From Acaryochloris thomasi RCC1774 (GTDB lineage: Bacteria; Cyanobacteriota; Cyanobacteriia; Thermosynechococcales; Thermosynechococcaceae), in assembly GCF_003231495.1 (NCBI RefSeq), contig NZ_PQWO01000012.1, positions 120,001-152,000 of the forward strand: a stretch of DNA of 32,000 bases. Reading direction: 5' to 3'. Position 1 is the stretch's first letter, and each line of letters starts with the position of its first letter. Positions 432 to 27,716 of this stretch are shown in pieces. The notes below the pieces were generated by a model. The model was given only the letters and a program-made list of their open reading frames with translations, did not search any database and was not told the origin of the DNA. Made by a program: the position numbers and the translations under genes.

Positions 432-920
432 CTACTCAGCAACGGAAAGGGTATAGCGATACTTCTGGCCCGGTTCACTCGTGCCAACCCACACCTGGTA
501 AGTGCCACCCCTGAGTTTCTGGGCCGTTAAGCCAGCATCTTGTCCTCGGGCCGTGTCATCGGCACAGAAGAGCTGGTTACCCGGCCCCTTAATCAGAAGA
601 GTGGTGTCTTTGCCGCTCTTGACCTGCAGTTTAAGACGCGCAAAGTTGCCTTTGAGGACCAAGATATGATCGGGTTCAGGAGAGCCATACCCCATGCAGC
701 GATTATTGTTGCGATCTCGATCGCCCACAACCTTATGGAGCGCCACAGCGCCCTTGGCATAGCCAGTCAGGTTTTTCGCAGCGGGCTTGAAGCCAGGGGC
801 AACGCTCACGCTGCCGAAATTGGACGGCTTTGCCAGTGCTGGTGCAGCCAAGAAGGTGGCGATCATCAATAATGAGGACCAGCCCCGAAGGACGGGATGC
901 CTTGAAGAAAATATTTGCAT
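432..920 (-). CDS. Secreted hypothetical protein with a C-terminal beta-sandwich (pre-peptidase C-terminal-like) domain
   Basis: 162-aa ORF with ATG at 918-920. N-terminal signal peptide (LLMIATFLAAPALA|KP). The domain resemblance (PDHILVL...DTTLLIKGP...YQVWVG) is my recognition only. Confidence 0.7.
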   Translation of the reverse strand: MQIFSSRHPVLRGWSSLLMIATFLAAPALAKPSNFGSVSVAPGFKPAAKNLTGYAKGAVALHKVVGDRDRNNNRCMGYGSPEPDHILVLKGNFARLKLQVKSGKDTTLLIKGPGNQLFCADDTARGQDAGLTAQKLRGGTYQVWVGTSEPGQKYRYTLSVAE

Positions 921-2392: not shown

Positions 2393-2689
2393 ATGTCTGG
2401 CGCTCCTCTCTCTCCTCCCACGGACAAGTCACCTGTAGCCCTACCGCTGGCCCAAAAGCTATCGGAGGAGCTGACAATTTCTTCAATGGATTGGCATCGG
2501 CTGAAGGCCAACCGCAAAGCGAGGGCTTTGGAGCAGGCGGGAGTTGCGATCGTATTCTTGCTCAAGAACCAGCCCGAAGAAGCTCTGGCACGGCTCCAGC
2601 AGGCTGTCGGCTGGCTCGATCGATCCATTAGTGCTCCTCCTTGCCCAACCCATGGCGAGAGTCACAGGGCCCCTAAATCTCAGTCTTAA
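2393..2689 (+). CDS. Small hypothetical protein (98 aa)
   Basis: Internal ATG of the 2288-2689 ORF, chosen because of the promoter-like element just upstream. Several overlapping ORFs compete in this region and no motif is recognised. Confidence 0.4.
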   Translation: MSGAPLSPPTDKSPVALPLAQKLSEELTISSMDWHRLKANRKARALEQAGVAIVFLLKNQPEEALARLQQAVGWLDRSISAPPCPTHGESHRAPKSQS

Positions 2690-2736
2690 TTTTTTAGAGG
2701 TAGAATATTGAGCCATGCCGTTCTCACCGAAGCTCT

Positions 2737-4320
2737 ATGACTGTCCTATCTAAGTTCCCGACAGTGTTGCTGGGGGCAGCCGCTGCGGTCACGATGGTAC
2801 TGCCCCCAGCAGCACAGGCTCTTAGCCCTGCTGAAGTCAGTCAGATGGCGAAAAGCTTCACGGTTCGGATCACGAGCCAAACCTCTGGTTCTGGGGTGAT
2901 CCTGAAGCGTCAGGGCGATCTTTACACGGTCTTGACAGCAGCTCACGTCGTCGCCTCAGACGATGACTATCGGATGATCACGCCTGATGGTAGGGAACAT
3001 ACGGTCAATACAGACAGCATCAAAAAGCTGCCGGAACTAGACTTAAGCATTGTTCAGTTCACCAGCAATAAACCCTATCAAACCGCTCAAATCGGAGAAT
3101 CTGATCAGGCTGTAGAGGGGACAATTAGCTACATTGCTGGATTTCCGAACCGCACCGAGGCTTTGCCTGAATCAATCTATAACTTTACCGAAGGCAAAAT
3201 CACGGCCAGCGCCAGCCGTCCCCAGGCTGAGGGCTACTCATTGGTCTATTCCAACAATACGTTGCCTGGAATGAGCGGTGGGCCAGTGCTCAACGAAACT
3301 GGAAAGTTAATTGCCATTCATGGCAGAGCAGATACAACTGAACAAGCGCAAAATCCCAATATTGACCCGTCGATCTACATCAAGACAGGGTTTAATTTAG
3401 GGATTCCAATCAAGCGCTTTTTGAGCCTTGTCCCTCAGACCGGCGTAGATTTGGGTTTTGCTATCCCCACAGCACGGTCAACCGGCTCAAAGCTTTCTGC
3501 AGATGACTACTATCTGCAGGCGAGCGAGAAGATGGATGCGAAAGATTATGAGGGTGCGATCGCAAATCTAGATCAGGCTATTCGTCTCAAACCAAACTAC
3601 GCTGCGGCCCACCTAAATCGTGGGTATGCCCATTTCTTTCTCAACCAGACAGAAGCGGCTTTGGCTGACAGCAACAAAGTCATCCAACTCGCGCCCAATC
3701 AAAGTACGGCCTATCTCTTAAGAGGACTGATTTACAGCCTGTCTGGAGAGAACATTAGTAAAGCCCCAGCCGACTTCAAGCGAGCACAGACCTTAGCCAA
3801 AGCTCAGGGAGACTCAAGTACGAGTCAAACCGCTCAAAAAATGATTGCCAGCTTGAAGGGATCTTCGGATAAGCCGCCAGATTCTCCAGACTTAAAGAGC
3901 AGTATGATCCGTTCCGGGCTACACATCGCCAATAAAGATACGAAGAGAGTCACCCAGGAACTGCCGACGCTGGCAAACCTCTCGTGCAAAGAGCAAAATT
4001 TGTCCGGCTACTTGATTGCCAGAATGATGTTGAGAATGTTGGCACCAGCGGATAGTCACGGTGCGATCGCCTCTCAAACATCCTGTCCTGCGTTTGTGAA
4101 AGATCAGACGAAGCTGCTAGATAAAGCAGAGCAAAAAATTAAGGCTAGCCCCAATGAGATCAACGCCTACATGGAACGTGGTTTAATCCACGCTGAGATT
4201 TTAGGAGATACACAGCGTGCCATTCCTGACATTCAGAAAGCAGCGAAGCTTTCCATCGCTCAGAAGCAACAAAAGAAAAGCAAGGGAGTCATGGTTTATC
4301 TCAGAAGTTTGCAACCCTAG
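2737..4320 (+). CDS. Secreted trypsin-like (S1 family) serine protease fused to TPR repeats
   Basis: Signal peptide (AAAAVTMVLPPAAQA|LS). Catalytic triad context TAAHVV (His), ELDLSIVQF (Asp), GMSGGPV (Ser). The C-terminal half has TPR-like repeats (YEGAIANLDQAIRLKPNYAAAHLNRGYAHF..., NAYMERGLIHAEILGDTQRAIPDIQKAAKL). Confidence 0.88.
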   Translation: MTVLSKFPTVLLGAAAAVTMVLPPAAQALSPAEVSQMAKSFTVRITSQTSGSGVILKRQGDLYTVLTAAHVVASDDDYRMITPDGREHTVNTDSIKKLPELDLSIVQFTSNKPYQTAQIGESDQAVEGTISYIAGFPNRTEALPESIYNFTEGKITASASRPQAEGYSLVYSNNTLPGMSGGPVLNETGKLIAIHGRADTTEQAQNPNIDPSIYIKTGFNLGIPIKRFLSLVPQTGVDLGFAIPTARSTGSKLSADDYYLQASEKMDAKDYEGAIANLDQAIRLKPNYAAAHLNRGYAHFFLNQTEAALADSNKVIQLAPNQSTAYLLRGLIYSLSGENISKAPADFKRAQTLAKAQGDSSTSQTAQKMIASLKGSSDKPPDSPDLKSSMIRSGLHIANKDTKRVTQELPTLANLSCKEQNLSGYLIARMMLRMLAPADSHGAIASQTSCPAFVKDQTKLLDKAEQKIKASPNEINAYMERGLIHAEILGDTQRAIPDIQKAAKLSIAQKQQKKSKGVMVYLRSLQP

Positions 4321-5033: not shown

Positions 5034-5891
5034 TCACCTGTTCTCCAACCAAGCTCTCAGATCAGAAGATGTAGAAAAATCCAGCAACGCCTCTCCTAGC
5101 TTTTCAAGCTCAGTGAGCGAGAGCGAGCAGACTTGGGTCTCAACGTCAGGGGCAATGACTCCAACCCGACGAGTGAGAAGTCGGAGAATAAGTGACTGGG
5201 CCTCTTCAAGAGCACCCTCCTGACGACCCTCCTGACGGCCCTCCTGACGACCCTCCTGGAGAAATTCTTCTTTCCATTCCTGGTAGATAACAGATTGCTG
5301 CATCGTTTCCTTCCGTAGCACCTGATTGATCAAGTCTTGCTTCAATGTTAACCCAGCGAGAATCGCCGCTGATGCTGCCACATTACTCTGCAGCCGACGG
5401 TCGGCAATGGCCTCCACCTTCGAGGCAACCTGTTTCAACGTCTCCTTCTTGTTCTCCGTTTGAGTCAGAACTGCCAACGGCAACAACCCTATTGCATCCA
5501 GGAATGGTTGAGTCGGCTGCTCCCAAAGACGAATCACCTCAAATTCATAGCGCAGCTTCGGAATTTCAAAGGTGTTCTGATAGACAAGATCAGAGCCTGT
5601 CGGCGTTAGATAGACTACGACTTGCCTCATCTGCTTACTGGGAAAACGACGGAACACCCTTAATCGATAATCCGTGAGTCTAAACGCCATTGCTGTATCT
5701 GGCTCTGTCTGAAACTCGATCTGTAGAATCAGCTTGTCTGAATCGAGCAAGATGAGTGAATCGGCCCGAATCGGCTCCAGAGAGAGTTCTGTAGGACTGA
5801 GTTTTGTCAAAGCTATTGATTCGTCGAGCAACCAGGTGGCAAAGTCAGCCGGAAAGCTCTCAGCAAGAAACTTACAGGTTGGGTCAAACAT
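5034..5891 (-). CDS. Rpn-family recombination-promoting nuclease / putative transposase (PD-(D/E)XK-like, DUF4351-type C-terminus)
   Basis: The N-terminus MFDPTCKFLAESFPADFATWLL, a central ...IEFQTEPD... block, the QEGRQEGRQEGRQEG repeat and the LILRLLTRRVG...L tail are typical of the abundant cyanobacterial Rpn/YhgA-like family (recognition only). Confidence 0.8.
   Translation of the reverse strand: MFDPTCKFLAESFPADFATWLLDESIALTKLSPTELSLEPIRADSLILLDSDKLILQIEFQTEPDTAMAFRLTDYRLRVFRRFPSKQMRQVVVYLTPTGSDLVYQNTFEIPKLRYEFEVIRLWEQPTQPFLDAIGLLPLAVLTQTENKKETLKQVASKVEAIADRRLQSNVAASAAILAGLTLKQDLINQVLRKETMQQSVIYQEWKEEFLQEGRQEGRQEGRQEGALEEAQSLILRLLTRRVGVIAPDVETQVCSLSLTELEKLGEALLDFSTSSDLRAWLENR
5215..5260. 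repeat. 12-bp tandem repeat (ccctcctgacgR, 3.8 copies) encoding (QEGR)n inside the Rpn-like gene
   Basis: Units at 5215-5226, 5227-5238 and 5239-5250, plus a partial unit at 5251-5260. The unit is 4 codons, so the repeat stays in frame. Confidence 0.9.
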
Positions 5892-6202: not shown

Positions 6203-7261
6203 ATGTTGACAGAACAGCAGCAGGACGGCCACCTGCTTTACTACGGGCCAGCCAAGCCCAAAGGACTCCCCAGACGGCTGATTCACGTGAACGGCATGGC
6301 CAGTGACGTTAAAAAGCAGCTCCGCGACCTAGAGGCGCTGGTGTGGATGACCGTTGAACATCCGACCGACATCGTGGGGGTCCATAACAGCACCGCCAAT
6401 TTTCAGAGTGATCTTTTAGAAAGCACGTTGGGCGGCGCAGATTTAGTTCAGCATCGGGCCGATCGCCAAACGCCAGAGAGCCAGAAGCGACTGCGGGGAT
6501 ACGCCGATTCTTTGCAGGCCCTCTGCGACCATGAGCTACCGTCGGATGCTGATATTTTAGCGGCGGTGCAGCGTCTTCAGCGTTCTCTCACCGTTGCTGA
6601 AGGACAGGAGAAGGCCCAGTCGCCCATCGACTTAGAGCTGATTCGACGGCTGCCCTTTCTGCAGGATATGGACCTGTCAGCTCTAGAGAGCTATCTATAC
6701 GGAAGCTATCCAGCCGGTGCGCCGCGACCGACGATGCGGACAGCCTATGAAATTATCCGGGCCATTCGGGCGGGGGCAGAGGTGCTGCTGGTGGCGCATA
6801 GTCAGGGAACCATCATCACGGCGGTGGCGCTTCATATTGTCAAACAGCTTTTGGGGGGAGAGGTCTGGGCTAAGTCTCTCCGTTTCGTGGGCTATGGGCC
6901 CGTGATTCTATTTGATGATCTGCCGATGGAGATGAGATCGCAAACCATCCTCATTCAGCACCGTCAGGATCTGATTGCCGAGTCCTTCAGCAACCAGCGC
7001 AACGTTGATCTATGGAACAACATGCAAACCCAGGCCAAAAATCTACTAGAGCAGGCCGATCGGATCTTTCAAATGGTCAGTCGAGACTCCCACCACAGCG
7101 CCAGCGTTTATCTAGGACTAACGGGGGATATTGCTGGTGATCGCTCGGCCCAACTGATCAAGCAACTGCTGACCGAAAACTGGGAGAACCACCCGTTCAT
7201 CCAGGGGCTACGGGCCAGCCGAATTATTCTAGAAGAGCCTGAAACCTATATCCAGCCGTAA
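6203..7261 (+). CDS. Alpha/beta-hydrolase-fold serine hydrolase (lipase/esterase-like) with a large helical insertion
   Basis: 352-aa ORF with ATG at 6203. Nucleophile elbow LLVAHSQGT (A-H-S-Q-G), early strand RRLIHVNGM (oxyanion-hole-like), candidate Asp (HRQDLIA) and His (SRDSHHSA). About 150 aa lie between the first strand and the nucleophile. Confidence 0.6.
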   Translation: MLTEQQQDGHLLYYGPAKPKGLPRRLIHVNGMASDVKKQLRDLEALVWMTVEHPTDIVGVHNSTANFQSDLLESTLGGADLVQHRADRQTPESQKRLRGYADSLQALCDHELPSDADILAAVQRLQRSLTVAEGQEKAQSPIDLELIRRLPFLQDMDLSALESYLYGSYPAGAPRPTMRTAYEIIRAIRAGAEVLLVAHSQGTIITAVALHIVKQLLGGEVWAKSLRFVGYGPVILFDDLPMEMRSQTILIQHRQDLIAESFSNQRNVDLWNNMQTQAKNLLEQADRIFQMVSRDSHHSASVYLGLTGDIAGDRSAQLIKQLLTENWENHPFIQGLRASRIILEEPETYIQP

Positions 7262-7366: not shown

Positions 7367-7918
7367 ATGAGTCGTTCATTTCCAAATTCAGACTATTCAA
7401 AAGACCAATTCTCAATGGCCGTCGCCACCCACGCGTCTCTCTGGCGCAAAAGCATTATCGTTGTCCTTGTGGCCTGGCTCGGTGCCAGTCTGCTGCTAGA
7501 CCTTGTTGTTATGCCTAGCCTCTACGGCGCGGGCATGATGGACTCTTCTGGCTTTGCTATGGCCGGAGATATGATTTTCTCGGTTTTCAACCGTGTCGAA
7601 CTGCTGGCCGGTTCTGTAGTCCTGACAGGCTGCCTAATCTGGTCTGCGATCAACAGTGCGCGTCCGCTGCAGCAGCAGTCGTTCATGCTCGCTATTGCCG
7701 CGCTGCTGCTCGTGATTCCCTTGGTCTACACCTATGGCCTTACACCTAGCATGGGCGCATTAGGCATTCAGCTCAACCTCTTTGAGACCGCAACTGTTCC
7801 CAAGCAGATGGACCAGCTCCATCAAACCTATTGGGGCTTAGAGCTGCTCAAGCTAACGGCAGCAGGTCTACTTCTCTCCCGCTTCTGGAAGAATTCAGAC
7901 ATTTCCTTAGCGCAGTAA
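7367..7918 (+). CDS. Integral membrane protein, about 4 TM helices (DUF4149-like)
   Basis: ATG at 7367 preceded by GGAGG (7353-7357). Hydrophobic segments IIVVLVAWLGASLLLDLVV, LLAGSVVLTGCLIW, MLAIAALLLVIPLVY, LLKLTAAGLLL. A terminator follows. Confidence 0.75.
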   Translation: MSRSFPNSDYSKDQFSMAVATHASLWRKSIIVVLVAWLGASLLLDLVVMPSLYGAGMMDSSGFAMAGDMIFSVFNRVELLAGSVVLTGCLIWSAINSARPLQQQSFMLAIAALLLVIPLVYTYGLTPSMGALGIQLNLFETATVPKQMDQLHQTYWGLELLKLTAAGLLLSRFWKNSDISLAQ

Positions 7919-8001: not shown

Positions 8002-8715
8002 CTACTCGTACCAGCTATTCAGAAACGCGATGCGCTGCGTTTGACTCGGTAAGCGAGCAAAGTTGAGAGCCACGCTATAGAAATCATCCCTGAATCCGCG
8101 TTCATGGGGCGAGAGAACGGCTGACTGTGGAAAGGTGCGGTCTAGGGCAGCTTGCGCCTGACGATTGGGTGTCACAACGCTGCCTTCTGCATAGTACTGT
8201 CGCCGGGCTTGAATCTGACGGATGGCCTGCGTAAATTTTCCCTGAGTGATTCGGTCTGCGGCAAACAGCTCACTGTCAAAGGCTTGAACTTTTGCCGCTA
8301 AGTAGTCGGTGCGGGAGGGATTAGGCGTTGCTTTCTCCAGAAGGATCTGGGCAAGAGTTGTTTCATGTAAACACCCTAAACCTGTCCACACTTGAGTCAT
8401 GGGGACGGCCATCAGATAAAGACGCCCTTGGGCTGGGTCAAATTCAAATAAATTAGCGCGCCGCTGCTGGGCCATCTCGACTTCGGTGAGCGCCACGACG
8501 GCAAAGCGATCGCGCTCAGGCTGAAATGCACTGCCCTGTTGAGCATGGGCTTTATAAAACTGAGGAATAGCTTGGAGCTGAGCATGGCCAGCTGTAACGG
8601 CTTCCATTCCCCGCAGGCAGTTGGCTAAGGTGGCTTGGCGAATATCTTGGGCCTGACTGGGCACGCTCCAGGCAAGCATCGAGATCACCGTTAGCACAAT
8701 GGGGAAACGAGCCAT
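8002..8715 (-). CDS. Secreted hypothetical protein
   Basis: ATG at 8715 gives MARFPIVLTVISMLAWSVPSQAQ|D, a signal peptide. The TTG at 8733 in the ORF track is less likely. No motif recognised. Confidence 0.65.
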   Translation of the reverse strand: MARFPIVLTVISMLAWSVPSQAQDIRQATLANCLRGMEAVTAGHAQLQAIPQFYKAHAQQGSAFQPERDRFAVVALTEVEMAQQRRANLFEFDPAQGRLYLMAVPMTQVWTGLGCLHETTLAQILLEKATPNPSRTDYLAAKVQAFDSELFAADRITQGKFTQAIRQIQARRQYYAEGSVVTPNRQAQAALDRTFPQSAVLSPHERGFRDDFYSVALNFARLPSQTQRIAFLNSWYE

Positions 8716-8797
8716 GAATTGATGAGGGTGCAATTTACCTTCCCAGTATAGGCGCGCAGCCTCTCAGCACTGCACGTTTTAGAGATCGAGACTCTGC

Positions 8798-14564: not shown

Positions 14565-14837
14565 ATGGACCCTATTACTCTAATCATTACGTCTTTAGCG
14601 ACCTTCGTGCAGATATATCTATATCTGCTGATCGCTCGCGTGTTATTGAGCTGGTTCCCAAATATTAATTGGATGAACCCACCTTTCTCAATTCTTAGCC
14701 AGCTCACCGATCCATATCTGAATATTTTTCGATCAATTATCCCTCCCCTCGGCGGCATTGATCTATCGCCAATCCTAGGATTTTTGCTGCTTCAGGTTCT
14801 TCAAGGTGCCTTAGTTAGAATCCCTTATATGATTTAG
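14565..14837 (+). CDS. yggT: YggT family membrane protein (Ycf19 homologue)
   Basis: LLIARVLLSWFP...LTDPYLNIFRSIIPPLGGIDLSPILGFLLL matches the YggT/Ycf19 signature. Confidence 0.88.
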   Translation: MDPITLIITSLATFVQIYLYLLIARVLLSWFPNINWMNPPFSILSQLTDPYLNIFRSIIPPLGGIDLSPILGFLLLQVLQGALVRIPYMI

Positions 14838-14898
14838 TGACCGGCTAACAGAAAAATGCATCTTGAGCATTCGCTTTTCTTCTGCACTCTGAGAAGCA

Positions 14899-15351
14899 CT
14901 AACGAACTTTCGCGGCGAACCCGCTTGCTTTGAACTGCTCAAGCTGTAATGGGGGCTTAAGACCCTCAGGAACGCTAATTCTAAGTTCAAAGGTTCCCAC
15001 CCCCGGGTCTACCTCATTGATAGAGCCTAGGCGAGTGCGGTTCTCCATGACCGGGTTGTTATTCGTGTCATAGATCCGGCCAAAAACATCAGCATCTACT
15101 ACAGGGCTGTTAGAGGGGTTCTTTGTCGTCCCAGTAATCAGGAAGCAGTTGGCAAGTCTTAACGTCGGCCCTCCGCTGGTAACGGTCCCTTCACCCACTT
15201 TGTCTGGGCACAGATCGGCAGACAGATCCGTCAGCTTGATTTGGGTCACGGCTTGGGCATCAGGACTGGTAAAACCACTCACACATAACAGGAAGAGGGC
15301 CAGCATCGAGCTGAGTAGGGAACGCCAAAGTAGAGTGATGTTTAATCGCAT
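14899..15351 (-). CDS. Exported hypothetical protein (periplasmic or lumenal)
   Basis: 150 aa with ATG at 15351. Signal peptide MLALFLLCVSGFTSPDAQA|V. No motif recognised. Confidence 0.7.
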   Translation of the reverse strand: MRLNITLLWRSLLSSMLALFLLCVSGFTSPDAQAVTQIKLTDLSADLCPDKVGEGTVTSGGPTLRLANCFLITGTTKNPSNSPVVDADVFGRIYDTNNNPVMENRTRLGSINEVDPGVGTFELRISVPEGLKPPLQLEQFKASGFAAKVR

Positions 15352-15450
15352 AGGTGTTCGTCAAATAACATTCTCAACAATCGCACATTATCTTTGTGCT
15401 TTTGAATCCTGTGTAACCTCAGTTAACGCTCTCTTGAGGAATCGGGAGAC

Positions 15451-15490
15451 AATAAAAAAACAAAAAGAGGTGGAGAATAATTGCCACCTC
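15451..15490 (-). terminator. Rho-independent terminator (minus strand) for the DPCGA-repeat gene
   Basis: Minus-strand RNA: GAGGUGG, loop CAAUUAUUCU, CCACCUC, then UUUUUGUUUUUUUAUU. It lies 85 nt downstream of the stop at 15575. Confidence 0.8.
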
Positions 15491-15574
15491 AAGTATTCTA
15501 TCGCTATCTGCTAGCTCTAAAGAGCAGAGCCAGTCAAACTATCAGAGTTGCGGTTTGACTGGTTAATGTTTTGA

Positions 15575-15781
15575 CTAAGGAGCCGAAGCACCGCAGGGAT
15601 CTTCTTTCGCGCCACAAGGATCTGCAGCGGCACCACAGGGATCTGCAGCAGCACCACAAGGATCTGCAGCACCATCAGTCTCCGCAGGTGCATCAGTAGC
15701 AGGCTCAGAGCAGCTCGTAACCAATGCTCCTGAACCCATTAGAGAAACAGCGGCAACCATTGCCATGTAATTAACTTTCAT
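15575..15781 (-). CDS. Small putative lipoprotein with four DPCGA cysteine repeats (68 aa precursor)
   Basis: ATG at 15781, 7 nt after GGAGAG. Signal peptide ends in a lipobox-like VTS|C. The mature part is CSEPATDAPAETDGA-ADPCGA-AADPCGA-AADPCGA-KEDPCGA-SAP. A dedicated terminator lies downstream. Confidence 0.7.
   Translation of the reverse strand: MKVNYMAMVAAVSLMGSGALVTSCSEPATDAPAETDGAADPCGAAADPCGAAADPCGAKEDPCGASAP
15588..15671. repeat. 21-bp tandem repeat, 4 units, coding for the DPCGA(A/K)(A/E) heptads
   Basis: Units at 15588-15608 (degenerate), 15609-15629, 15630-15650 and 15651-15671. Consensus gcaccacaRggatctgcagcR. Confidence 0.9.
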
Positions 15782-16311
15782 AATTCTCTCCGTTGATTAA
15801 AGAATCAAATGAACCAAACACACCGAAGTTGCGGCTTTATCCTGGCAATCATAGCAATGAGTTACCGAGTTTGGCGAGAATCATGGTCACCGCCAAGATC
15901 TTTGTAGGGGCGAACTCAGCACTGGAAACAGTTCAAGTCTAGTAATATCGGCGATCTGCAACATCACCTTCTTTTATATAAGTTGTGGAGTAAATAGACA
16001 CCTTATTTCTCTTCTTTAGTTTTTTCAGGGACTGGGATACTTTGAGGTAATTCATACAAAGTGTGCTGCTCTCAGTTAAAACTTATCTGATCGTCAGGAC
16101 AAAATCATCCTTGCCCTTTTAGATGGGGGATGGAAGATTAATGATAATTACTCCAAGTGCTGGAAGCCCAATATTTACTTTTAGGCTGAGGGTATTGGAA
16201 CAATGCAGAGGTTATGAGGGCAAACAAGAACCTTTTGCCGCGACGACAGAAGCAGATCTTCTGTCTCGCAAACAGAAACGGTCTAGTTATTGCAAATAGT
16301 GGTATATCAGC

Positions 16312-16920
16312 GTGGTTAATCAAGATTGGCTAGCAACAGAAGACGGAAAGTGGCAAGTCTGCCACAGCGCAGTTCCCGGTGAAGGCCTACATCAGTATCG
16401 CCTGTATCGCTTTCTTACCAATGTAGAAGACATCATCGAGCACCACTCCCAAGAGCAGGTTCGTTTAGAAAAGATGCGCCCCTTGGTACGCCAATTACTA
16501 ACTGAATCCACATGGCTACAGTTCGCCGCTCAGCCGCCCGACCCGAAGGTGGGATGGTCGGTGAACTTTCTCTATGAAGAGCCTCAATTCCCGCTCACGA
16601 TTCAAATGGTGGCATGGTTACCGGGTCAAAAGTCTCCCATCCATAACCATGCGACTTGGGGTGTTGTTGCGCTCCTTAGTGGTCAAGAAAAAAATCGATT
16701 TTGGCGGCGGGCCGCAGACGAAAGCCATCCCGATCGAATTGAGCAGACGGGAGAACTGATTTTGAATCCAGGGGACATTATTAGCTTTATGCCAGATGCT
16801 ATCCATGCTGTCGAGGCATTGGGAGACGAACCCACCGTTAGTTTCAATATTTATGGAGCACCCAATTACCAAGACCGCTGGAGATTTGATCCGCAAGCCC
16901 ATACGGCTCAGCAATTTTGA
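16312..16920 (+). CDS. Cupin-fold protein of the cysteine-dioxygenase (3-His thiol dioxygenase) type
   Basis: SPIHNHATWGVVALLSGQE ... PGDIISFMPDAIHAVEA gives an H-x-H ... H metal triad in a cupin spacing. The GTG start at 16312 is uncertain. Confidence 0.7.
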   Translation: MVNQDWLATEDGKWQVCHSAVPGEGLHQYRLYRFLTNVEDIIEHHSQEQVRLEKMRPLVRQLLTESTWLQFAAQPPDPKVGWSVNFLYEEPQFPLTIQMVAWLPGQKSPIHNHATWGVVALLSGQEKNRFWRRAADESHPDRIEQTGELILNPGDIISFMPDAIHAVEALGDEPTVSFNIYGAPNYQDRWRFDPQAHTAQQF

Positions 16921-16933
16921 TTTGCGCCGCTCT

Positions 16934-18427
16934 ATGCCGATGAAACGCGCTGTCCCTCAAGTCTTTCAGAACCTGCCAGCAAAGCTGAAAAGGCGGATCA
17001 ACTGGTCATCTTTAGAGGTGCAGTTAACGCTAGGCATAGGTACGCTGTTTGCCTTATCGCTCAGTAGTGTGGCGATCTGGACCTGCTGGAAAATGCAGCG
17101 CATTCTCATCGAAAGTCATAAAAAGAATGTCTTCACGGTTGCCAGTCAGGTTACGGAAGACATCACCTTCTACAGCGAGATGCTACCGATGAACAAAAGC
17201 CTCCAGAAGGCCATTGACAATCGAGCATCTCGCAATCTTCTGCTCTGGATCGAGAAAGAGGATGCATCTTTAGTGGCTGCTCCTGCCATCACAGGGCCAG
17301 CGTGGCAGCGTGTTGGCCACCCCAGCGACCTTGCCCAAACTTTTCAGAAGGGTTCGCTCTTTGATCTCTATCAGGTTCAAGATCGCGAATTAGTTGCCTG
17401 TCGCAGTCCTCTGGTGATCGGCACTCAAACGTTAGGCACTCTGTTTGTGGCTCAAGATATTACGCAGGATCAGCGACGCATTAACGACAATATTCAAACG
17501 CTGGTGCTAGCGACGAGCCTGGCAATGATACTGTCGCTCTTTGCCATTGCCTACTTTATTCGACGTTCCCTCCAGCCGCTGTTTCAGATGCAAGCCATGA
17601 CACAGAAGATATCGGCTGAAGACCTAGGACATGCCCAAGTCGTTCTGCCAAAAGCCTCAAGTGAAATTCAATCGTTGGCCAATACCTTCAACATGATGCT
17701 GGCTCGTTTATCTGAAGCATGGGCCCAGCAGCATCATATTGGGGAACGACAGCGACAGTTTGCGAGTGATGTTTCTCATGAGCTGAGAACTCCCCTCACT
17801 ATTGTCAGAGGCTATTTGCAAAGTACGCTGCGCCGCAGCGATAATTTGCTTGACCATCAGCGCGAAGCTCTTGAGGTAGCTGCGGGTGAGGCCGATCACA
17901 CAATTCAGCTCCTGCAAGACTTACTTAACTTAGCGCGGGCCGATGATGGCTATATGGCCTATGATCTACAAATTCTGATTCTCAACGATGTTGTGACAGG
18001 CGTAGTGCAAGTCGCAGAACAGTTCAGCCATCGGACAATTTTGGTGGAGGCGAAGGCGTCGCTGATTCCGATCTATGCAGACGCGAATCGCCTCCACCAA
18101 ATCTTGGTCAATCTAGTAGAGAATGCCTTGAAGTATTCGGACGAGGCTGAGCCAGTGAGAATCAAGCTAGAGCAAGTCGATAAACAGGCTGTTATTCAGG
18201 TTTGCGATCGCGGCCCCGGCATTCCGCTACAGCAGCAATCTCGCATCTTTGATCGTTTTTATCGTTTGGACGAAGCCCGTACTCGTTCGATGGGAGGGAC
18301 AGGCCTAGGACTATCTATCGTTAAAGTCTTTGTAGAGGGGATGGGGGGACAGGTCACTGTTCGCTCTGAGCTCAACGAAGGCAGCACCTTTACCGTTACA
18401 TTGCCCATATCTGCAGTATCGCTATGA
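16934..18427 (+). CDS. Membrane sensor histidine kinase (2 TM with periplasmic loop, HAMP, HisKA, HATPase_c)
   Basis: I prefer the ATG at 16934; the ORF-track start at 16796 would overlap the cupin gene by 125 nt. TM1 LTLGIGTLFALSLSSVAIW, TM2 LVLATSLAMILSLFAIAYFI. H-box [15 protein letters not shown]-box LVENALKYS, G-boxes DRGPGIP and GGTGLGLSIV. Confidence 0.9.
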   Translation: MPMKRAVPQVFQNLPAKLKRRINWSSLEVQLTLGIGTLFALSLSSVAIWTCWKMQRILIESHKKNVFTVASQVTEDITFYSEMLPMNKSLQKAIDNRASRNLLLWIEKEDASLVAAPAITGPAWQRVGHPSDLAQTFQKGSLFDLYQVQDRELVACRSPLVIGTQTLGTLFVAQDITQDQRRINDNIQTLVLATSLAMILSLFAIAYFIRRSLQPLFQMQAMTQKISAEDLGHAQVVLPKASSEIQSLANTFNMMLARLSEAWAQQHHIGERQRQFASDVSHELRTPLTIVRGYLQSTLRRSDNLLDHQREALEVAAGEADHTIQLLQDLLNLARADDGYMAYDLQILILNDVVTGVVQVAEQFSHRTILVEAKASLIPIYADANRLHQILVNLVENALKYSDEAEPVRIKLEQVDKQAVIQVCDRGPGIPLQQQSRIFDRFYRLDEARTRSMGGTGLGLSIVKVFVEGMGGQVTVRSELNEGSTFTVTLPISAVSL

Positions 18428-19098
18428 CCGCAAATATTTTATTAGTTGAAGACGAAGTCAAACTGGCCCAGTTTGTGAAACTAGAACTTGCCCAAGAAGG
18501 GTACGAAGTGACGGTGGCCAATGATGGGATGACCGGTCTCACTTCGGCTCGAGAACTGCAGCTTGATCTGATTATTCTCGATTGGATGCTGCCTGGTTTC
18601 ACTGGCATTGAGGTGTGTCGTCGACTGCGAGCGACGGGTGATCAGGTACCGGTGATCTTGTTGACAGCCAAAGATGAGATTAGCGATCGCGTCGAGGGCC
18701 TAGACGCGGGCGCAGATGACTATCTAGTCAAACCTTTTAGTATTGAAGAACTACTGGCACGGGTGCGGGCGCATCTGCGGCGCACTCAAGAAGATGACCC
18801 AGACGAGCTGCAGTTCTCTGATTTGACTCTTAATCAGCGCACTCGTGAAATCTATCGGGGTGATCGCTCGATTGAGCTAACGGCCAAGGAATTTGATCTG
18901 CTGGTGTATTTAATGCGCCATCCTCGGCAGGTGCTGACGCGCGATCGCATCTTAGAAGAGGTCTGGGGCTACGACTTCATGGGCGATTCCAATATCATTG
19001 AGGTGTATATCCGCTATCTGCGCCTGAAGTTAGAAGAGAATGATGAAAAGCGCATGATTCAAACGGTGAGGGGTGTGGGATACGTCATGAGAGAGTAG
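18424..19098 (+). CDS. OmpR/PhoB-family response regulator (receiver plus winged-helix DNA-binding domain)
   Basis: ATGA overlap with the kinase stop. ILLVEDE, phospho-acceptor LIILDWMLPG, LLTAK, KPF. C-terminal LTAKEFDLLVYLMRHPRQVLTRDRILEEVWG...TVRGVGY. Confidence 0.93.
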   Translation: MTANILLVEDEVKLAQFVKLELAQEGYEVTVANDGMTGLTSARELQLDLIILDWMLPGFTGIEVCRRLRATGDQVPVILLTAKDEISDRVEGLDAGADDYLVKPFSIEELLARVRAHLRRTQEDDPDELQFSDLTLNQRTREIYRGDRSIELTAKEFDLLVYLMRHPRQVLTRDRILEEVWGYDFMGDSNIIEVYIRYLRLKLEENDEKRMIQTVRGVGYVMRE

Positions 19099-21087: not shown

Positions 21088-21771
21088 TTAAGAAGACTGA
21101 GCCGTCGCTAATTCCTCAGCTAACAGTTGCTGATAGATGCGGGCTAGTTGAGGCGTCACAGCGTTATCTTCAATACCGTAACCGAGGCTAGTCCAGGTTC
21201 CAGAGAGGCGCTTGAGGACTGACTGTAGCTGACCGGCCTCTAAGGCTTGAGGAATATCTAATCCCCATGCTTGCTGATCTTGCAGCCACTTATATACAAC
21301 CTGATCTTGGTACATGGGTTCAAAGCTGTAGGTTTGCCACAACAGCATTTTGTGGGGCTTGGGGTGATAGGCCTTGGCTTTCTCTGCCCAGGTGGTATTG
21401 ATGAACTGATAGCGACCAGCAGCAGTGGTGCAGTTGCCAACATTGGGGCCAGCAACGATGGGCAAGCAGCGATCAGGATGTCCGCTCAGGTCTTCGACAT
21501 GGGTGCCGCCATACAGCAGTGTGTAGGGACTAGGGTCGTTGGCTTCGCTGGCGGAAATGGTGCGCATCAGCGCTCGCAAATGGGGACTGCCACCAGACAT
21601 GGCAAGCGGCGCAATCTCTCCAGGACGGCTGCTTTGCGGGAGTAACCACTCGGGGTTAGGCCGCGGCCAGATGAAAGCTGTCAGCCCCAATAGCGCCAGA
21701 GCAAGGATCGTAGGTCGCCATGGGAAACGCGACTCAATTTTGAGGGTTCGAGGTGGAAGCGTGGGAACCAA
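21088..21771 (-). CDS. Membrane-anchored lambda-lysozyme-like lytic transglycosylase (GH104-type)
   Basis: N-terminal TM PTILALALLGLTAFIW. It aligns by eye with phage lambda R: ISASEAN (catalytic Glu), LYGGTHVEDLSGHP, TAAGRYQFINTTW, TWTSLGYG. Start is TTG at 21771. Confidence 0.75.
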   Translation of the reverse strand: MVPTLPPRTLKIESRFPWRPTILALALLGLTAFIWPRPNPEWLLPQSSRPGEIAPLAMSGGSPHLRALMRTISASEANDPSPYTLLYGGTHVEDLSGHPDRCLPIVAGPNVGNCTTAAGRYQFINTTWAEKAKAYHPKPHKMLLWQTYSFEPMYQDQVVYKWLQDQQAWGLDIPQALEAGQLQSVLKRLSGTWTSLGYGIEDNAVTPQLARIYQQLLAEELATAQSS

Positions 21772-26706: not shown

Positions 26707-27056
26707 TCCCTGTGGTCTCTCCGCAATTGACGAATGGCTGGGTAGCAATGGACAAACTTTGATTGACTGGCACAATACGAGGGCTAGCAAACGCAGCTAT
26801 TTCAAGGGCTGTGCCACTCATGACGTTTCTGGGTCACTGCTAAGCCTGGGTATTGTAGGGGTAAAGGGGAAATAATGCCTGTATCCCTCATCACTCAAAG
26901 CTTCAAATGCCTCAGAATAGGCCCGAAGGCACTGGGGTGCCGTTCTCAAAATCGAGTGCTATATTGGAACCTCAGCCGGGGGGTAATTGATAGCAGTGGT
27001 GTCTTTCACCATTCTAGAATTGTCCACTCTATTGGATTTGCTCCAGGTTGTGCTTC

Positions 27057-27716
27057 ATGATGGTAGCTTCTCAAACATCCGTATCCCAACAACATTCATC
27101 CTGCTACACAGACGAGGGATTGATCCAGCGCTTCGTTGATGGATTCATCCAGGGAAACCCTATTTTATTATCAAATCCCAATCTGCGGACTGAGCCTCTG
27201 TTCAAGAGTATGCAGTTGATTGCAGGCCATGATGTGATCGCGACAGCTTATTTGCAAGACCCGCCCATCCGCGCTGTTGTGCACCACGGCTCACCCTACA
27301 GCTCGATCCTCAAGCAGGCATTACTCGCTGAGAATTTTTATCCCCTCGCTCGCACGGGGCAAAGTCAGCAGTATGTCTATCAATATTGTCTTCCTCCCGA
27401 GGGGTATGAGCTCCGCTGTACGACAGCTAAAGAGCTGTGGCGTGTTTGTTGGGGCCGAGGGTTTAGCCTCCGCTCTGGAATCCCCCTCGATTTACTCGTT
27501 TGGGGCGGCGCTTCTAGCCGCAATCATGAAAACTGGCGCTCTCTCAGAGGAATAGACTGCGATCAAGGTAAGCTGCAGCTCAAGCTTCTAGGTGGAAGTC
27601 TTGCGATCGCAAGTTCTGATCTTGTCGTGTGGGCTCAGCAAAAATCCTCACACCCCTCTCCCAGAGAGCAGCGCACAAGACCGAACCTACGAGGATACTA
27701 TCGACTGCGCAACTGA
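27057..27716 (+). CDS. Hypothetical protein
   Basis: ORF of about 220 aa with ATG at 27057 or 27060 (TTG at 27048 in the track). No motif recognised. Its stop is 25 nt from the convergent CHASE2 kinase stop. Confidence 0.55.
   Translation: MMVASQTSVSQQHSSCYTDEGLIQRFVDGFIQGNPILLSNPNLRTEPLFKSMQLIAGHDVIATAYLQDPPIRAVVHHGSPYSSILKQALLAENFYPLARTGQSQQYVYQYCLPPEGYELRCTTAKELWRVCWGRGFSLRSGIPLDLLVWGGASSRNHENWRSLRGIDCDQGKLQLKLLGGSLAIASSDLVVWAQQKSSHPSPREQRTRPNLRGYYRLRN

What the first reader, a model, noticed from the sequence alone, without database searches (positions are those of the whole stretch)
15575..15781. Small lipoprotein made of four DPCGA cysteine heptads
This is a 68-aa precursor with a good SD (GGAGAG), a signal peptide ending in a lipobox-like VTS|C, and its own strong terminator, so it looks like a real gene.

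The predicted mature peptide is about 45 aa and very acidic. It consists almost entirely of four near-identical heptads, (A/K)(A/E)DPCGA, encoded by a 21-bp tandem repeat. That gives four evenly spaced thiols plus the lipidated Cys.

I do not recognise this as a named family. A regular Asp-Pro-Cys-Gly array tethered to a membrane could be a soft-metal (Cu(I), Zn, Cd) binding or buffering peptide, a redox-active thiol array, or a substrate for thiol modification. The nearest neighbours are a thiol-dioxygenase-type cupin and a two-component system.
Basis: partly seen in the sequence, partly recalled or inferred. Interest (0 to 1): 0.72.

Follow-up and report, generated by a model that had tools for sequence, protein, structure and literature searches.

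The report
Cysteine-repeat lipoprotein paired with thiol dioxygenase
This is a real, conserved but unnamed cyanobacterial gene for a tiny membrane-anchored peptide carrying four evenly spaced cysteines, and it almost always sits beside a gene for a thiol-oxidising iron enzyme and a sensor system, which points to an undescribed thiol- or metal-handling module of the cell envelope.

Summary
Window 15575-15781 (-) encodes a 68-aa prolipoprotein: lipobox VTS|C, then a 45-aa acidic, predicted-disordered mature part with four (A/K)(A/E)DPCGA heptads from a 21-bp tandem repeat. It has its own SD, promoter and terminator.

It belongs to an unannotated family. There are 59 clusters at E<1e-3 and 280 representatives in the exhaustive search, with no Pfam or NCBIfam model and no literature found. 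The family is defined by an MKVKY-type signal peptide, a lipobox, and 2-14 (D/N)-P-C-(A/G/S) units spaced 4-8 residues apart. Substitution patterns show purifying selection.

The new result is a conserved genetic linkage. The neighbouring cupin is a 3-His thiol-dioxygenase homologue. Of 80 cyanobacterial cupin loci, 55 carry a protein with this repeat within 4 kb. Usually it is transcribed divergently from a cupin-histidine kinase-response regulator operon, as in the window.

The same repeat is also fused to YHS, thioredoxin-like and DM13 domains, and outside cyanobacteria to SoxA/TsdA-type cytochrome c domains.

No MNIO or other known peptide maturase is nearby.

Best reading (about 0.4): a stress-regulated, lipid-tethered thiol array that captures soft metals or reactive sulfur species. 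The most novel reading (about 0.2) is that the cupin modifies the cysteines before export.

The parts
15575..15781 (-). Coding sequence (with stop) of the 68-aa Cys-repeat prolipoprotein
   Evidence: ORF list. Homologues have in-frame repeat-number variation. Third-codon-position bias: dN 0.15 / dS 1.73 against L007.
15713..15781 (-). Signal peptide (residues 1-23). Cys24 (15710-15712) is the predicted lipidated residue of lipobox V-T-S-C.
   Evidence: A PS51257-type rule is met here and in 58 of 60 cyanobacterial stand-alone members. AlphaFold predicts a helix at 3-21 and nothing else. M1, Y5 and C24 are invariant in 33 members. No SignalP/LipoP tool was available.
15587..15670 (-). Four heptads (A/K)(A/E)DPCGA, residues 38-65, encoded by a 21-bp tandem repeat
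   Evidence: TRF; per-unit codons.
15786..15791 (-). Shine-Dalgarno GGAGAG, 4 nt upstream of the ATG
   Evidence: Sequence read.
15810..15895 (-). Conserved promoter and 5' leader block of the repeat gene: -35 TCGCCA, 18-nt spacer, TG-extended -10 TATGAT at 15848-15877
   Evidence: Consensus scan. Near-invariant block in the alignment with L001, L002 and L007. Function is inferred.
15450..15490 (-). Intrinsic-terminator-like stem GAGGTGG/CCACCTC followed by a T-run
   Evidence: Sequence; fold z = -3.4. The consensus scanner did not list it, because its loop is longer than the scanner allows.
15530..15562 (-). 10-bp-stem hairpin directly after the stop codon
   Evidence: Fold. Role unknown.
16071..16110 (+). 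Conserved 40-nt element in the divergent intergenic region; candidate shared operator or promoter element
   Evidence: Invariant block in A3. Its two halves recur in Microcoleus/Tychonema loci: 18 of 32 intergenic regions against 0.7 in shuffles, with a pattern chosen post hoc. Unique in the window.
16312..16920 (+). 202-aa cupin, a 3-His thiol-dioxygenase homologue, transcribed divergently from the repeat gene
   Evidence: PDB phmmer: 6xb9 at 1.9e-15, 8vni, 4tlf, 4qma. AlphaFold pLDDT 92; the Foldseek top 50 are all thiol dioxygenases. H111, H113, H165, Y181 and R189 are invariant.
16934..18427 (+). Sensor histidine kinase (HAMP, HisKA, HATPase_c), starting about 14 nt after the cupin stop
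   Evidence: Pfam. The only full-length NCBIfam alignment is to the heavy-metal sensor subfamily TIGR01386, below its cut-off (222 vs 292.55 bits). Start read.
18424..19098 (+). OmpR-family response regulator, overlapping the kinase stop
   Evidence: Pfam and NCBIfam. Below the cut-offs of NblR, RppA and the heavy-metal regulator models.
14899..15351 (-). 150-aa secreted protein of unknown function, downstream neighbour only in close relatives; probably not part of the core module
   Evidence: Synteny. No Pfam hit; weak FxLYD hit. A terminator lies between it and the repeat gene.

Best explanation
The gene encodes a prolipoprotein. After Sec export and processing at VTS|C24 (diacylglyceryl transfer, then signal peptidase II), a 45-residue acidic, disordered peptide stays tethered to a membrane by its lipidated Cys. 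It displays four thiols, each in an Asp-Pro-Cys-Gly turn.

It is the minimal, stand-alone form of a (D/N)-P-C-(A/G/S) tandem-repeat module. In other cyanobacteria this module is an appendage of extracytoplasmic redox or metal domains.

The gene is transcribed divergently from an operon for a cytosolic 3-His thiol dioxygenase, a histidine kinase and an OmpR-type regulator, and is probably co-regulated with it.

Most likely it is a stress-induced, membrane-anchored thiol array. It would capture a thiophilic species outside the cytoplasm; my first choice is Cu(I) or another soft metal, my second is reactive sulfur species. General or dedicated thiol-redox partners would keep it reduced or recycle it. 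The cupin would deal with a thiol compound in the cytoplasm as the second arm of the same response.

Shown: the gene, family, repeat, lipobox, linkage, fusions and cupin identity. Inferred: export, lipidation, co-regulation, the ligand, and every step of the chemistry.
For: Gene reality and family.

Lipobox in 58 of 60 members. Mature part without predicted structure.

Linkage from the cupin side: 55 of 80 cyanobacterial cupin loci hold a repeat protein within 4 kb. With stricter ORF calling, 51 loci qualify; in 35 of them the repeat gene is directly adjacent, with a median gap of 311 bp.

Linkage from the repeat side: the cupin is adjacent in 8 of 11 contexts, even where all other neighbours differ.

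The arrangement repeat-gene <-> cupin-HK-RR occurs in 34 loci plus the window, and 31 of the 34 have the repeat gene.

Fusions of the repeat: a YHS (seleno)protein domain (NF041384, 156 bits), a thioredoxin-like domain with a CcdA/DsbD_TM gene next door, DM13, and SoxA/TsdA-type cytochrome c.

The kinase aligns full-length only to the heavy-metal sensor subfamily, below its cut-off.

CutA1, an FGE-type lipoprotein and a sub-threshold cupredoxin-like lipoprotein appear in some clusters.

Promoter and intergenic blocks are conserved.
Against: There are no expression, lipidation or binding data.

The window itself has no metal transporter or chaperone gene. The kinase and regulator fall below every curated cut-off, so the signal is unknown.

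The regulator type next to the cupin varies (HK/RR, ECF sigma, ArsR, MerR-CbiC), so no single stimulus is implied.

A thiol array in an oxidising compartment would form disulfides unless it is kept reduced, and the window has no dedicated reductase.

The model does not explain why the cupin in particular is the constant partner.

Strict conservation of Asx-Pro before each Cys and a small residue after it, with free spacing, looks more like a recognition or turn motif than a metal-cluster rule.

The YHS subfamily involved has Cys/Sec variants, according to the NCBIfam name. That suggests redox catalysis rather than simple metal binding.
Confidence: 0.4

Rival explanations
1. Enzyme-substrate pair (a new RiPP-lipoprotein type). 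The cytosolic cupin oxidises the internal cysteines of the (D/N)-P-C-(A/G) motifs before Sec export, for example to sulfinates or another oxidised species. The lipoprotein pathway then anchors the modified peptide. This is the logic of DAG-RiPPs, but with a mononuclear 3-His cupin in place of an MNIO.
For: The two constant elements of the locus across genera are the cupin and the repeat motif, while fused domains, regulators and gene order all vary.

In the Calothrix/Rivularia loci the repeat gene follows the cupin on the same strand after about 95 bp.

A short, strictly conserved motif with variable spacers is what enzyme recognition sites look like: EGKCG for HvfBC/NedBC and CPACGMG for ChrH (PMC13056109).

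The cupin has no signal peptide and keeps an intact 3-His/Tyr site.

Its invariant R189 aligns with the Arg that follows the active-site Tyr in 8vni. By position this is the carboxylate-binding Arg168 of 3MDO (PMC8050391). Asp-Pro-Cys offers a thiolate plus a carboxylate.

The signal-peptide N-terminus MK(V)KY is unusually conserved; M1 and Y5 are invariant.

ADO and PCO show that the fold can take protein substrates (PMC8503633, listed, title and abstract only; Foldseek PCO4 hits).
Against: The linkage is not obligate. 25 of 80 cupin loci have no repeat gene within 4 kb, and 3 of 11 repeat-gene contexts have no cupin.

The closest solved relatives act on small thiols, and 3MDO has a closed cavity (PMC8050391).

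Known protein-acting thiol dioxygenases take only N-terminal Cys.

Asn variants of the motif lack a carboxylate.

The His of the Ser-His-Tyr triad is Asn in this family.

Thioredoxin fusions with CcdA next door suggest that the cysteines stay thiols.

The same motif occurs in non-cyanobacterial proteins, and the two non-cyanobacterial contexts examined have no cupin.
Confidence: 0.22
2. Sulfur-carrier or redox-relay arms. The cysteines carry sulfane or thiosulfonate sulfur, or shuttle electrons as thiol/disulfide, for partner redox proteins. This would be analogous to the swinging Cys arm of SoxY, which is served by SoxAX cytochromes, SoxS/W thioredoxins and the CcdA-like SoxV (that analogy is from my own knowledge). 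The stand-alone lipoprotein would be a free-standing carrier or redox buffer.
For: The fusion partners are all redox proteins: SoxA/TsdA-type cytochrome c flanked by arrays on both sides, thioredoxin-like with CcdA adjacent, DM13, and YHS (seleno)protein.

The neighbouring enzyme is a sulfur-oxidising enzyme family.

Carriers include many mat-forming genera: Microcoleus, Coleofasciculus, Lyngbya, Symploca, Calothrix. That these live with sulfide is my own knowledge.
Against: There is no homology to SoxY. No sox, sqr or persulfide dioxygenase genes were seen in the loci examined. The cytochrome fusions are outside cyanobacteria. The window has no thioredoxin, CcdA or cytochrome gene next to the repeat gene.
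Confidence: 0.18
3. Passive element. The repeat is only a flexible tether or spacer of envelope proteins, and the stand-alone gene is a remnant of a fusion protein or a structural, disulfide-crosslinked envelope component with no specific chemistry.
For: In the fusion proteins the repeat lies between the membrane anchor or signal peptide and the globular domain, where lipoprotein tethers lie. The region is low-complexity and predicted disordered. Copy number drifts freely.
Against: Cys, the preceding Pro and Asx are conserved in every unit across 280 representatives, while spacers vary.

Stand-alone forms are conserved in many genera, with their own promoter and terminator and under purifying selection.

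Arrays also occur C-terminal to domains.

The linkage to the cupin would be unexplained.
Confidence: 0.08
4. Not a gene: a chance ORF over a DNA tandem repeat or a non-coding RNA.
For: It is short and low-complexity, overlaps a 21-bp DNA repeat, and no family model matches it.
Against: Homologues keep the reading frame through copy-number changes. The signal peptide and lipobox are conserved, with mostly third-position changes. The same motif is translated in frame with recognised domains in the fusion proteins. No Rfam match.
Confidence: 0.02

Closest known systems
Lipidated oxazolins (NedA; HvfA family), a class of DAG-RiPPs (PMC13056109)
   Same: A small precursor with a signal-peptidase-II lipoprotein signal, followed by tandem short Cys-Gly-containing motifs. 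The neighbouring gene encodes a cytosolic, O2- and iron-dependent enzyme family that acts on cysteine sulfur. The proposed role is sequestering copper at the membrane.
   Different: The motif is EGKCG, not (D/N)PC(A/G). The maturase is an MNIO (DUF692) with a partner protein, and neither is in the window (tblastn; Pfam). Here the neighbour is a mononuclear 3-His cupin. No model hit. No modification has been shown here.
Bufferins (BufA1/DUF2282, BufA2)
   Same: Sec-exported Cys-containing peptides of the envelope, linked to metal stress and regulated by adjacent sensors. Some are predicted to be lipidated (PMC13056109).
   Different: Their precursors are folded and have different Cys patterns. 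They need MNIO BufB plus BufC. There is no sequence match: BufA2 scored 7 bits for one relative and nothing for the window peptide.
CefA, 'Cys-every-fifth RiPP peptide' (NCBIfam NF038108)
   Same: A low-complexity peptide with cysteines at a fixed short period. Pentad-type relatives (DPCAA)n resemble it weakly.
   Different: The window peptide gives no hit. Pentad relatives score 13-19 bits against a cut-off of 30. The signal peptide and context differ. No literature was found.
Phytochelatins, metallothioneins (SmtA/BmtA) and Csp1-type copper storage proteins (from my own knowledge)
   Same: Repeated acid-plus-thiol units, or many cysteines, used to bind soft metals. Csp1 shows that Cys-based Cu(I) binding can operate outside the cytoplasm.
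   Different: Phytochelatins are made enzymatically. Metallothioneins are cytosolic with CxC/CxxC patterns. Csp1 is a folded helical bundle. There is no homology. Here the peptide is lipid-anchored, has one Cys per unit and variable spacing.
SoxY carrier arm with SoxAX, SoxS/W and SoxV (from my own knowledge)
   Same: A Cys on a flexible Gly-rich arm, serviced by a SoxA-type cytochrome, periplasmic thioredoxins and a CcdA homologue. The same three partner types are fused or adjacent to the repeat module.
   Different: SoxY is a folded protein with one C-terminal GGCGG. There is no homology and no sox genes here.
Thiol dioxygenases: 3MDO, CDO, mercaptosuccinate dioxygenase; PCO/ADO (this concerns the neighbouring cupin)
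   Same: The fold, the 3-His iron site, the active-site Tyr and an Arg at the 3MDO/MSDO carboxylate-binding position.
   Different: About 25% identity. The Ser-His-Tyr triad reads Ser-Asn-Tyr. It has a conserved N-terminal beta-hairpin (residues 5-17) and a C-terminal tail. It forms its own cyanobacterial clade, annotated only as 'cupin'. Substrate unknown.

Membership tests
Bacterial lipoprotein (signal peptidase II substrate) | Positively charged n-region, hydrophobic h-region, lipobox [LVI][ASTVI][GAS]-C within about the first 35 residues | tested here: met
   K2, helix 3-21, V-T-S-C24. The PS51257-type rule is met in the window peptide and in 58 of 60 cyanobacterial members. This was a regex, not SignalP/LipoP.
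Bacterial lipoprotein (signal peptidase II substrate) | Actual diacylglyceryl modification and cleavage | not testable with these tools
   Needs globomycin sensitivity, or mass spectrometry of the acylated N-terminus.
Oxazolin / HvfA-NedA type DAG-RiPP | Repeated EGKCG core motif | tested here: not met
   The motif is AADPCGA; the family core is (D/N)PC(A/G/S). No NCBIfam hit.
Oxazolin / HvfA-NedA type DAG-RiPP | Adjacent MNIO (DUF692/PF05114) and partner protein | tested here: not met
   tblastn with a cyanobacterial MNIO finds nothing in the 32-kb window. Pfam on the ORFs scanned (most of the window's ORFs of 100 aa or more) shows none. None is adjacent in L001-L003, L009-L011, L092 or L095. 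In L007/L008 an MNIO lies 8 kb away with its own ChrA-like precursor.
Oxazolin / HvfA-NedA type DAG-RiPP | Lipoprotein signal peptide on the precursor | tested here: met
Bufferins (BufA1 DUF2282 / BufA2) | Match to the family models, with a BufB/BufC neighbourhood | tested here: not met
   No Pfam or NCBIfam hit for the window peptide. No MNIO.
CefA Cys-every-fifth RiPP (NF038108) | Score at or above the 30-bit cut-off | tested here: not met
   Window peptide: no hit at E<=10. Pentad relatives: 13-19 bits.
CefA Cys-every-fifth RiPP (NF038108) | Dedicated maturase next door | not tested
   I do not know the partner with certainty. No radical SAM or other maturase domain was seen in the window ORFs scanned.
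Bacterial metallothionein (SmtA/BmtA) | Pfam metallothionein model; cytosolic; CxC/CxxC clusters | tested here: not met
   No Pfam hit. The peptide is exported and has single Cys units.
Thiol dioxygenase superfamily (the neighbouring cupin, 16312-16920) | Cupin fold with a 3-His iron site | tested here: met
   PDB hits at 1e-15. Foldseek TM 0.72-0.77 to 6xb9 and 4tlf. H111, H113 and H165 are invariant in 33 sequences.
Thiol dioxygenase superfamily (the neighbouring cupin, 16312-16920) | Ser-His-Tyr outer-sphere triad | tested here: inconclusive
   It reads S177-N179-Y181. Tyr is invariant and Asn nearly invariant in place of His.
Thiol dioxygenase superfamily (the neighbouring cupin, 16312-16920) | O2-dependent oxidation of a thiol to a sulfinate | not testable with these tools
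   Needs an enzyme assay.
New family proposed here: (D/N)PC(A/G) repeat module linked to the cupin | Two or more (D/N)-P-C-(A/G/S) units behind a signal peptide, encoded within 4 kb of the cupin | tested here: met
   The window has four units, 530 bp from the cupin and divergent. The same pattern holds in 55 of 80 cupin loci.

The most novel reading that the evidence does not exclude
The cupin is a peptide-modifying thiol dioxygenase. It oxidises the internal cysteines of (D/N)-P-C-(A/G) motifs in the cytoplasm, on stand-alone precursors and on the tails of YHS, thioredoxin and DM13 proteins alike. The Sec and lipoprotein pathways then export and anchor the product. That would be a new class of lipidated ribosomal peptide, matured by a mononuclear 3-His cupin instead of an MNIO. 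It would also be the first thiol dioxygenase known to act on internal protein cysteines.
Probability: 0.2. Interest if true: 0.9.

Novelty: new variant of a known kind. Interest (0 to 1): 0.7.

Why it matters
Small exported Cys-rich peptides have recently emerged as a widespread bacterial answer to copper stress (bufferins, oxazolins), and lipidated versions were described only in 2026. This locus shows a family with the same outward design: a lipoprotein signal plus tandem Cys motifs. It is spread across many cyanobacterial genera. It has no MNIO, and instead is tied to a thiol-dioxygenase homologue and a sensor system.

Whichever reading is right, the result fills a gap. If the array binds metal or sulfur species, it adds a missing envelope component to cyanobacterial metal or sulfide homeostasis, and it explains a repeat found on YHS, thioredoxin, DM13 and cytochrome c proteins. 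If the cupin modifies it, it defines a new maturation chemistry.

The predictions are cheap to test with one co-expression experiment and one synthetic peptide.

Tried and rejected
- MNIO-dependent RiPP (oxazolin, bufferin or chryseobasin type): rejected as membership. There is no MNIO in the window and no model hits. The MNIO 8 kb away in L007/L008 has its own precursor ending in CPPCGRG.
- CefA: sub-threshold only for pentad relatives.
- Non-coding RNA: Rfam on 14800-16400 gave only a chance miRNA-type hit at E 0.29.
- Defence system: no PADLOC hit.
- The 150-aa downstream protein as the functional partner: rejected. It is a neighbour only in close relatives, whereas the cupin stays when synteny breaks.
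- Kinase sensor domain against the PDB: nothing useful.
- Literature searches for the motif strings, COG5553, CefA, and cupin plus RiPP gave nothing relevant.
- Relaxed search for degenerate repeats in the 25 cupin loci without a repeat gene: none found. A few of those contigs are cut within 600 bp of the cupin.
- AlphaFold of the peptide gives no structure beyond the signal helix, so no fold search was attempted.
Full report
**Observation.** The ORF at 15575-15781 on the minus strand is exactly as described. It has 68 codons and an SD GGAGAG 4 nt before the ATG. The N-terminus has K2, a hydrophobic stretch and the lipobox V-T-S-C24. An acidic linker follows, then four heptads (AADPCGA x3, KEDPCGA). 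Tandem Repeats Finder reports a 21-bp period. The four units differ only at synonymous third positions, apart from the K/E pair. The mature part is 45 aa with pI about 4.05 and five cysteines. Downstream lie a 10-bp-stem hairpin and a canonical stem plus T-run; the region folds at z = -3.4. This is the only open frame in the whole window, in any of six frames, with two or more [DN]PC[AGS] motifs.

**Is it a gene?** Yes. A single-sequence search found close homologues with 2, 4, 5 and 6 repeats, all in frame. A profile search found 59 clusters at E<1e-3. An exhaustive HMM search of 1.84 billion representatives found 280 at E<=1e-3 and 78 at E<=1e-10. In the gap-free first 26 codons, differences between orthologues fall mainly on third positions: 6/2/13 against L007, with dN 0.15 and dS 1.73. 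The promoter and leader block upstream is nearly invariant among four relatives and contains a TG-extended -10. Rfam finds nothing. AlphaFold predicts only the signal-peptide helix and leaves the rest unstructured, with pLDDT below 50.

**The family.** Cyanobacterial members share three features:
- an MK(V)KY-type N-terminus (M1, Y5 and C24 invariant, K2 at 90% or more);
- a lipobox, present in 58 of 60 members;
- 2-10 units whose conserved core is (D/N)-P-C-(A/G/S), up to 13-14 units in fetched loci.

Spacing between cysteines varies: 7 residues is commonest, then 5, 6 and 8. The heptad is therefore one variant, and the tetrapeptide is the real unit. A second clade (MRTLK...ATGCGKKKD...NPCGG) comes from other bacteria. 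None of these proteins has a Pfam, NCBIfam or PADLOC match or an informative name. Full-text searches for the motif strings found nothing.

**Neighbourhood.** The 150-aa secreted protein downstream is conserved only in close relatives. The constant neighbour is the 202-aa cupin, 530 bp upstream on the other strand. It is adjacent and divergent in L001, L002/3, L007/8, L009, L010/11, L092 and L095. In several of these the cupin is only 46-56% identical to the window's and every other neighbour differs. It is absent in L005, L093 and L094, which gives 8 of 11 contexts.

I then scanned one genome per species with the cupin. This gave 220 confirmed loci; in the best 80, every named organism is a cyanobacterium except one metagenome bin labelled Brocadiaceae and one labelled uncultured bacterium. 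Of these 80, 55 contain an ORF with two or more motifs within 4 kb. With stricter ORF calling, 51 loci qualify; in 35 of them the repeat gene is directly adjacent, with a median gap of 311 bp. The 25 remaining loci have no relaxed match either.

The dominant order is repeat protein <- | -> cupin-histidine kinase-response regulator. It occurs in 34 loci plus the window, and 31 of the 34 have the repeat protein. In Calothrix/Rivularia-type loci the small repeat gene follows the cupin on the same strand after about 95 bp, behind a MerR-CbiC regulator. In Nostocales the cupin sits with an ECF sigma/anti-sigma pair or an ArsR gene and has no repeat gene nearby.

**The cupin.** It matches solved thiol dioxygenases at about 1e-15: Azotobacter and Pseudomonas 3-mercaptopropionate dioxygenases, mercaptosuccinate dioxygenase and Ralstonia CDO. 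A confident model (pLDDT 92) retrieves only thiol dioxygenases at the top of the PDB search, down to ergothioneine dioxygenase and plant cysteine oxidase. H111, H113, H165, Y181 and R189 are invariant in 33 sequences.

R189 aligns with the Arg that follows the active-site Tyr in mercaptosuccinate dioxygenase. This is the position of Arg168, which binds the substrate carboxylate in 3MDO (PMC8050391). The His of the Ser-His-Tyr triad is Asn here. The cupin has no signal peptide. Databases call it only 'cupin', 'cysteine dioxygenase family protein' or a predicted metal-dependent enzyme.

**The repeat as a module.** In the cupin loci the same repeat, with the same type of N-terminus, is fused to three kinds of domain:
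- a YHS (seleno)protein domain (NF041384, 156 bits; Pfam YHS) in 19 loci;
- a thioredoxin-like WCxxC domain in 11 loci, often with a CcdA/DsbD_TM gene next to it;
- a DM13 domain.

The exhaustive search adds non-cyanobacterial proteins in which NPC(A/G) arrays flank a SoxA/TsdA-type cytochrome c domain on both sides. These in-frame fusions prove that the motif is translated. They also tie it to extracytoplasmic redox or metal proteins. Other recurrent neighbours are an FGE-sulfatase-type lipoprotein, CutA1, DUF4079, and a lipoprotein with a sub-threshold cupredoxin match.

**Regulation (inferred).** The kinase starts about 14 nt after the cupin stop, and the regulator overlaps the kinase stop, so the three genes form an operon. 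The kinase aligns end to end only with the heavy-metal sensor subfamily, below its cut-off. The regulator is just below the NblR, RppA and heavy-metal regulator cut-offs. A 40-nt element at 16071-16110 is invariant among close relatives. Its two halves recur in Microcoleus and Tychonema loci with a longer spacer: 18 of 32 intergenic regions against 0.7 in shuffles, though I chose the pattern after seeing the data.

**Mechanism.** The following are shown: an exported-type, lipobox-bearing, disordered poly-Cys peptide; a conserved family; a conserved link to a thiol-dioxygenase homologue and to regulators; and reuse of the repeat on redox or metal domains.

My best reading (0.4) is a regulated, lipid-tethered thiol array that captures a thiophilic species outside the cytoplasm. 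A soft metal such as Cu(I) is the first choice and reactive sulfur the second. The cupin would handle a thiol compound inside the cell as part of the same response.

The main rival (0.22) is that the cupin modifies the motif cysteines before export. This follows the logic of the lipidated RiPPs described in 2026, in which cytosolic MNIOs modify EGKCG or CPACGMG motifs on precursors carrying lipoprotein signals (PMC13056109). That model best explains why the cupin and the motif are the two constants. It is weakened by the non-obligate linkage and by the small-molecule character of the closest enzymes.

A sulfur-carrier or redox-relay reading (0.18) rests on the cytochrome, thioredoxin and CcdA partners. 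A passive tether (0.08) and a non-gene (0.02) are unlikely.

**Comparison and novelty.** The peptide works like, and looks like, a lipidated oxazolin or bufferin. It fails their defining features: motif, MNIO with partner, and family models. It also fails CefA. I found no description of this family, of the repeat as a module, or of its link to a thiol dioxygenase. I rate it a new variant of a known kind (exported Cys-repeat peptides of the envelope), with a one-in-five chance of a new maturation chemistry.

**Limits.** There are no expression data, no lipoprotein predictor and no whole-genome co-occurrence test. Repeat-side context rests on 11 loci. Cupin-side loci are the 80 best of 220 and include many related Microcoleus genomes.

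Noticed in passing
L007 17842-19212 (same in L008): An MNIO (PF05114) with its own 97-aa secreted precursor ending in YCPPCGRG, plus a separate 65-aa helical protein. This matches the split cyanobacterial ChrH-type clusters described in PMC13056109. It lies 8 kb from the repeat gene and is not present in the window.
   Followed up: partly
window 14899-15351 (-): A 150-aa secreted protein with two mature cysteines, no Pfam hit and only a weak FxLYD match. It is the downstream neighbour of the repeat gene in Acaryochloris/Thermosynechococcaceae-like relatives only.
   Followed up: partly
window 16071-16110: A 40-nt intergenic element, invariant among close relatives. Its halves (AG[TA]TAAAACT and TCAG..CAAAAT.CATC) recur in Microcoleus/Tychonema loci with a spacer 13 nt longer. 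It may be a regulator binding site or a promoter of the cupin operon.
   Followed up: partly
L019 3519-3989, L020 3498-3971, L034 3451-3933; L018 3561-3972: A lipoprotein of about 157 aa directly upstream of the cupin on the same strand in Symploca, Acaryochloris and Lusitaniella, with a sub-threshold Cupredoxin_1 match. In A. marina MBIC11017 it is split into two ORFs, so it may be frameshifted.
   Followed up: partly
L050, L071, L072, L081 (about 2500-3500): An FGE-sulfatase-domain lipoprotein lies between the repeat gene and the cupin, with a CutA1 gene and a pentapeptide-repeat gene on the other side of the cupin.
   Followed up: partly
P0251, P0253, P0256, P0258, P0263, P0292: Non-cyanobacterial proteins with long NPC(A/G) arrays on both sides of a single SoxA/TsdA-type cytochrome c domain. 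P0244 and P0254 have arrays around an unassigned beta-rich domain. Their genomic context could not be fetched.
   Followed up: no
P0006, P0016, P0019 and related; L004, L096: A separate clade of small lipoproteins (MRTLK..ATGCGKKKD..NPCGG repeats) and high-GC relatives ending in GRGF(L/V)L(S/A). The two contexts seen have no cupin.
   Followed up: partly
window 15571-15699 (+) and 15517-15693 (-): ORFs with HRRDLQ-type or LQILVV-type repeats are the same DNA repeat read in other frames, not genes.
   Followed up: yes
window 5034-5891 (-): A DUF4351/YhgA-like (Rpn-type) putative transposase/nuclease gene. Several secreted or membrane ORFs in the window (432-920, 6203-7261, 7367-7918, 8002-8733, 21088-21771, 27048-27716) have no Pfam match.
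   Followed up: no
L095 6747-9278: In one relative the repeat gene is followed by a class-I pyridine-nucleotide disulfide oxidoreductase, a GXWXG/DUF4334 protein and a second, unrelated Cupin_2 protein.
   Followed up: no
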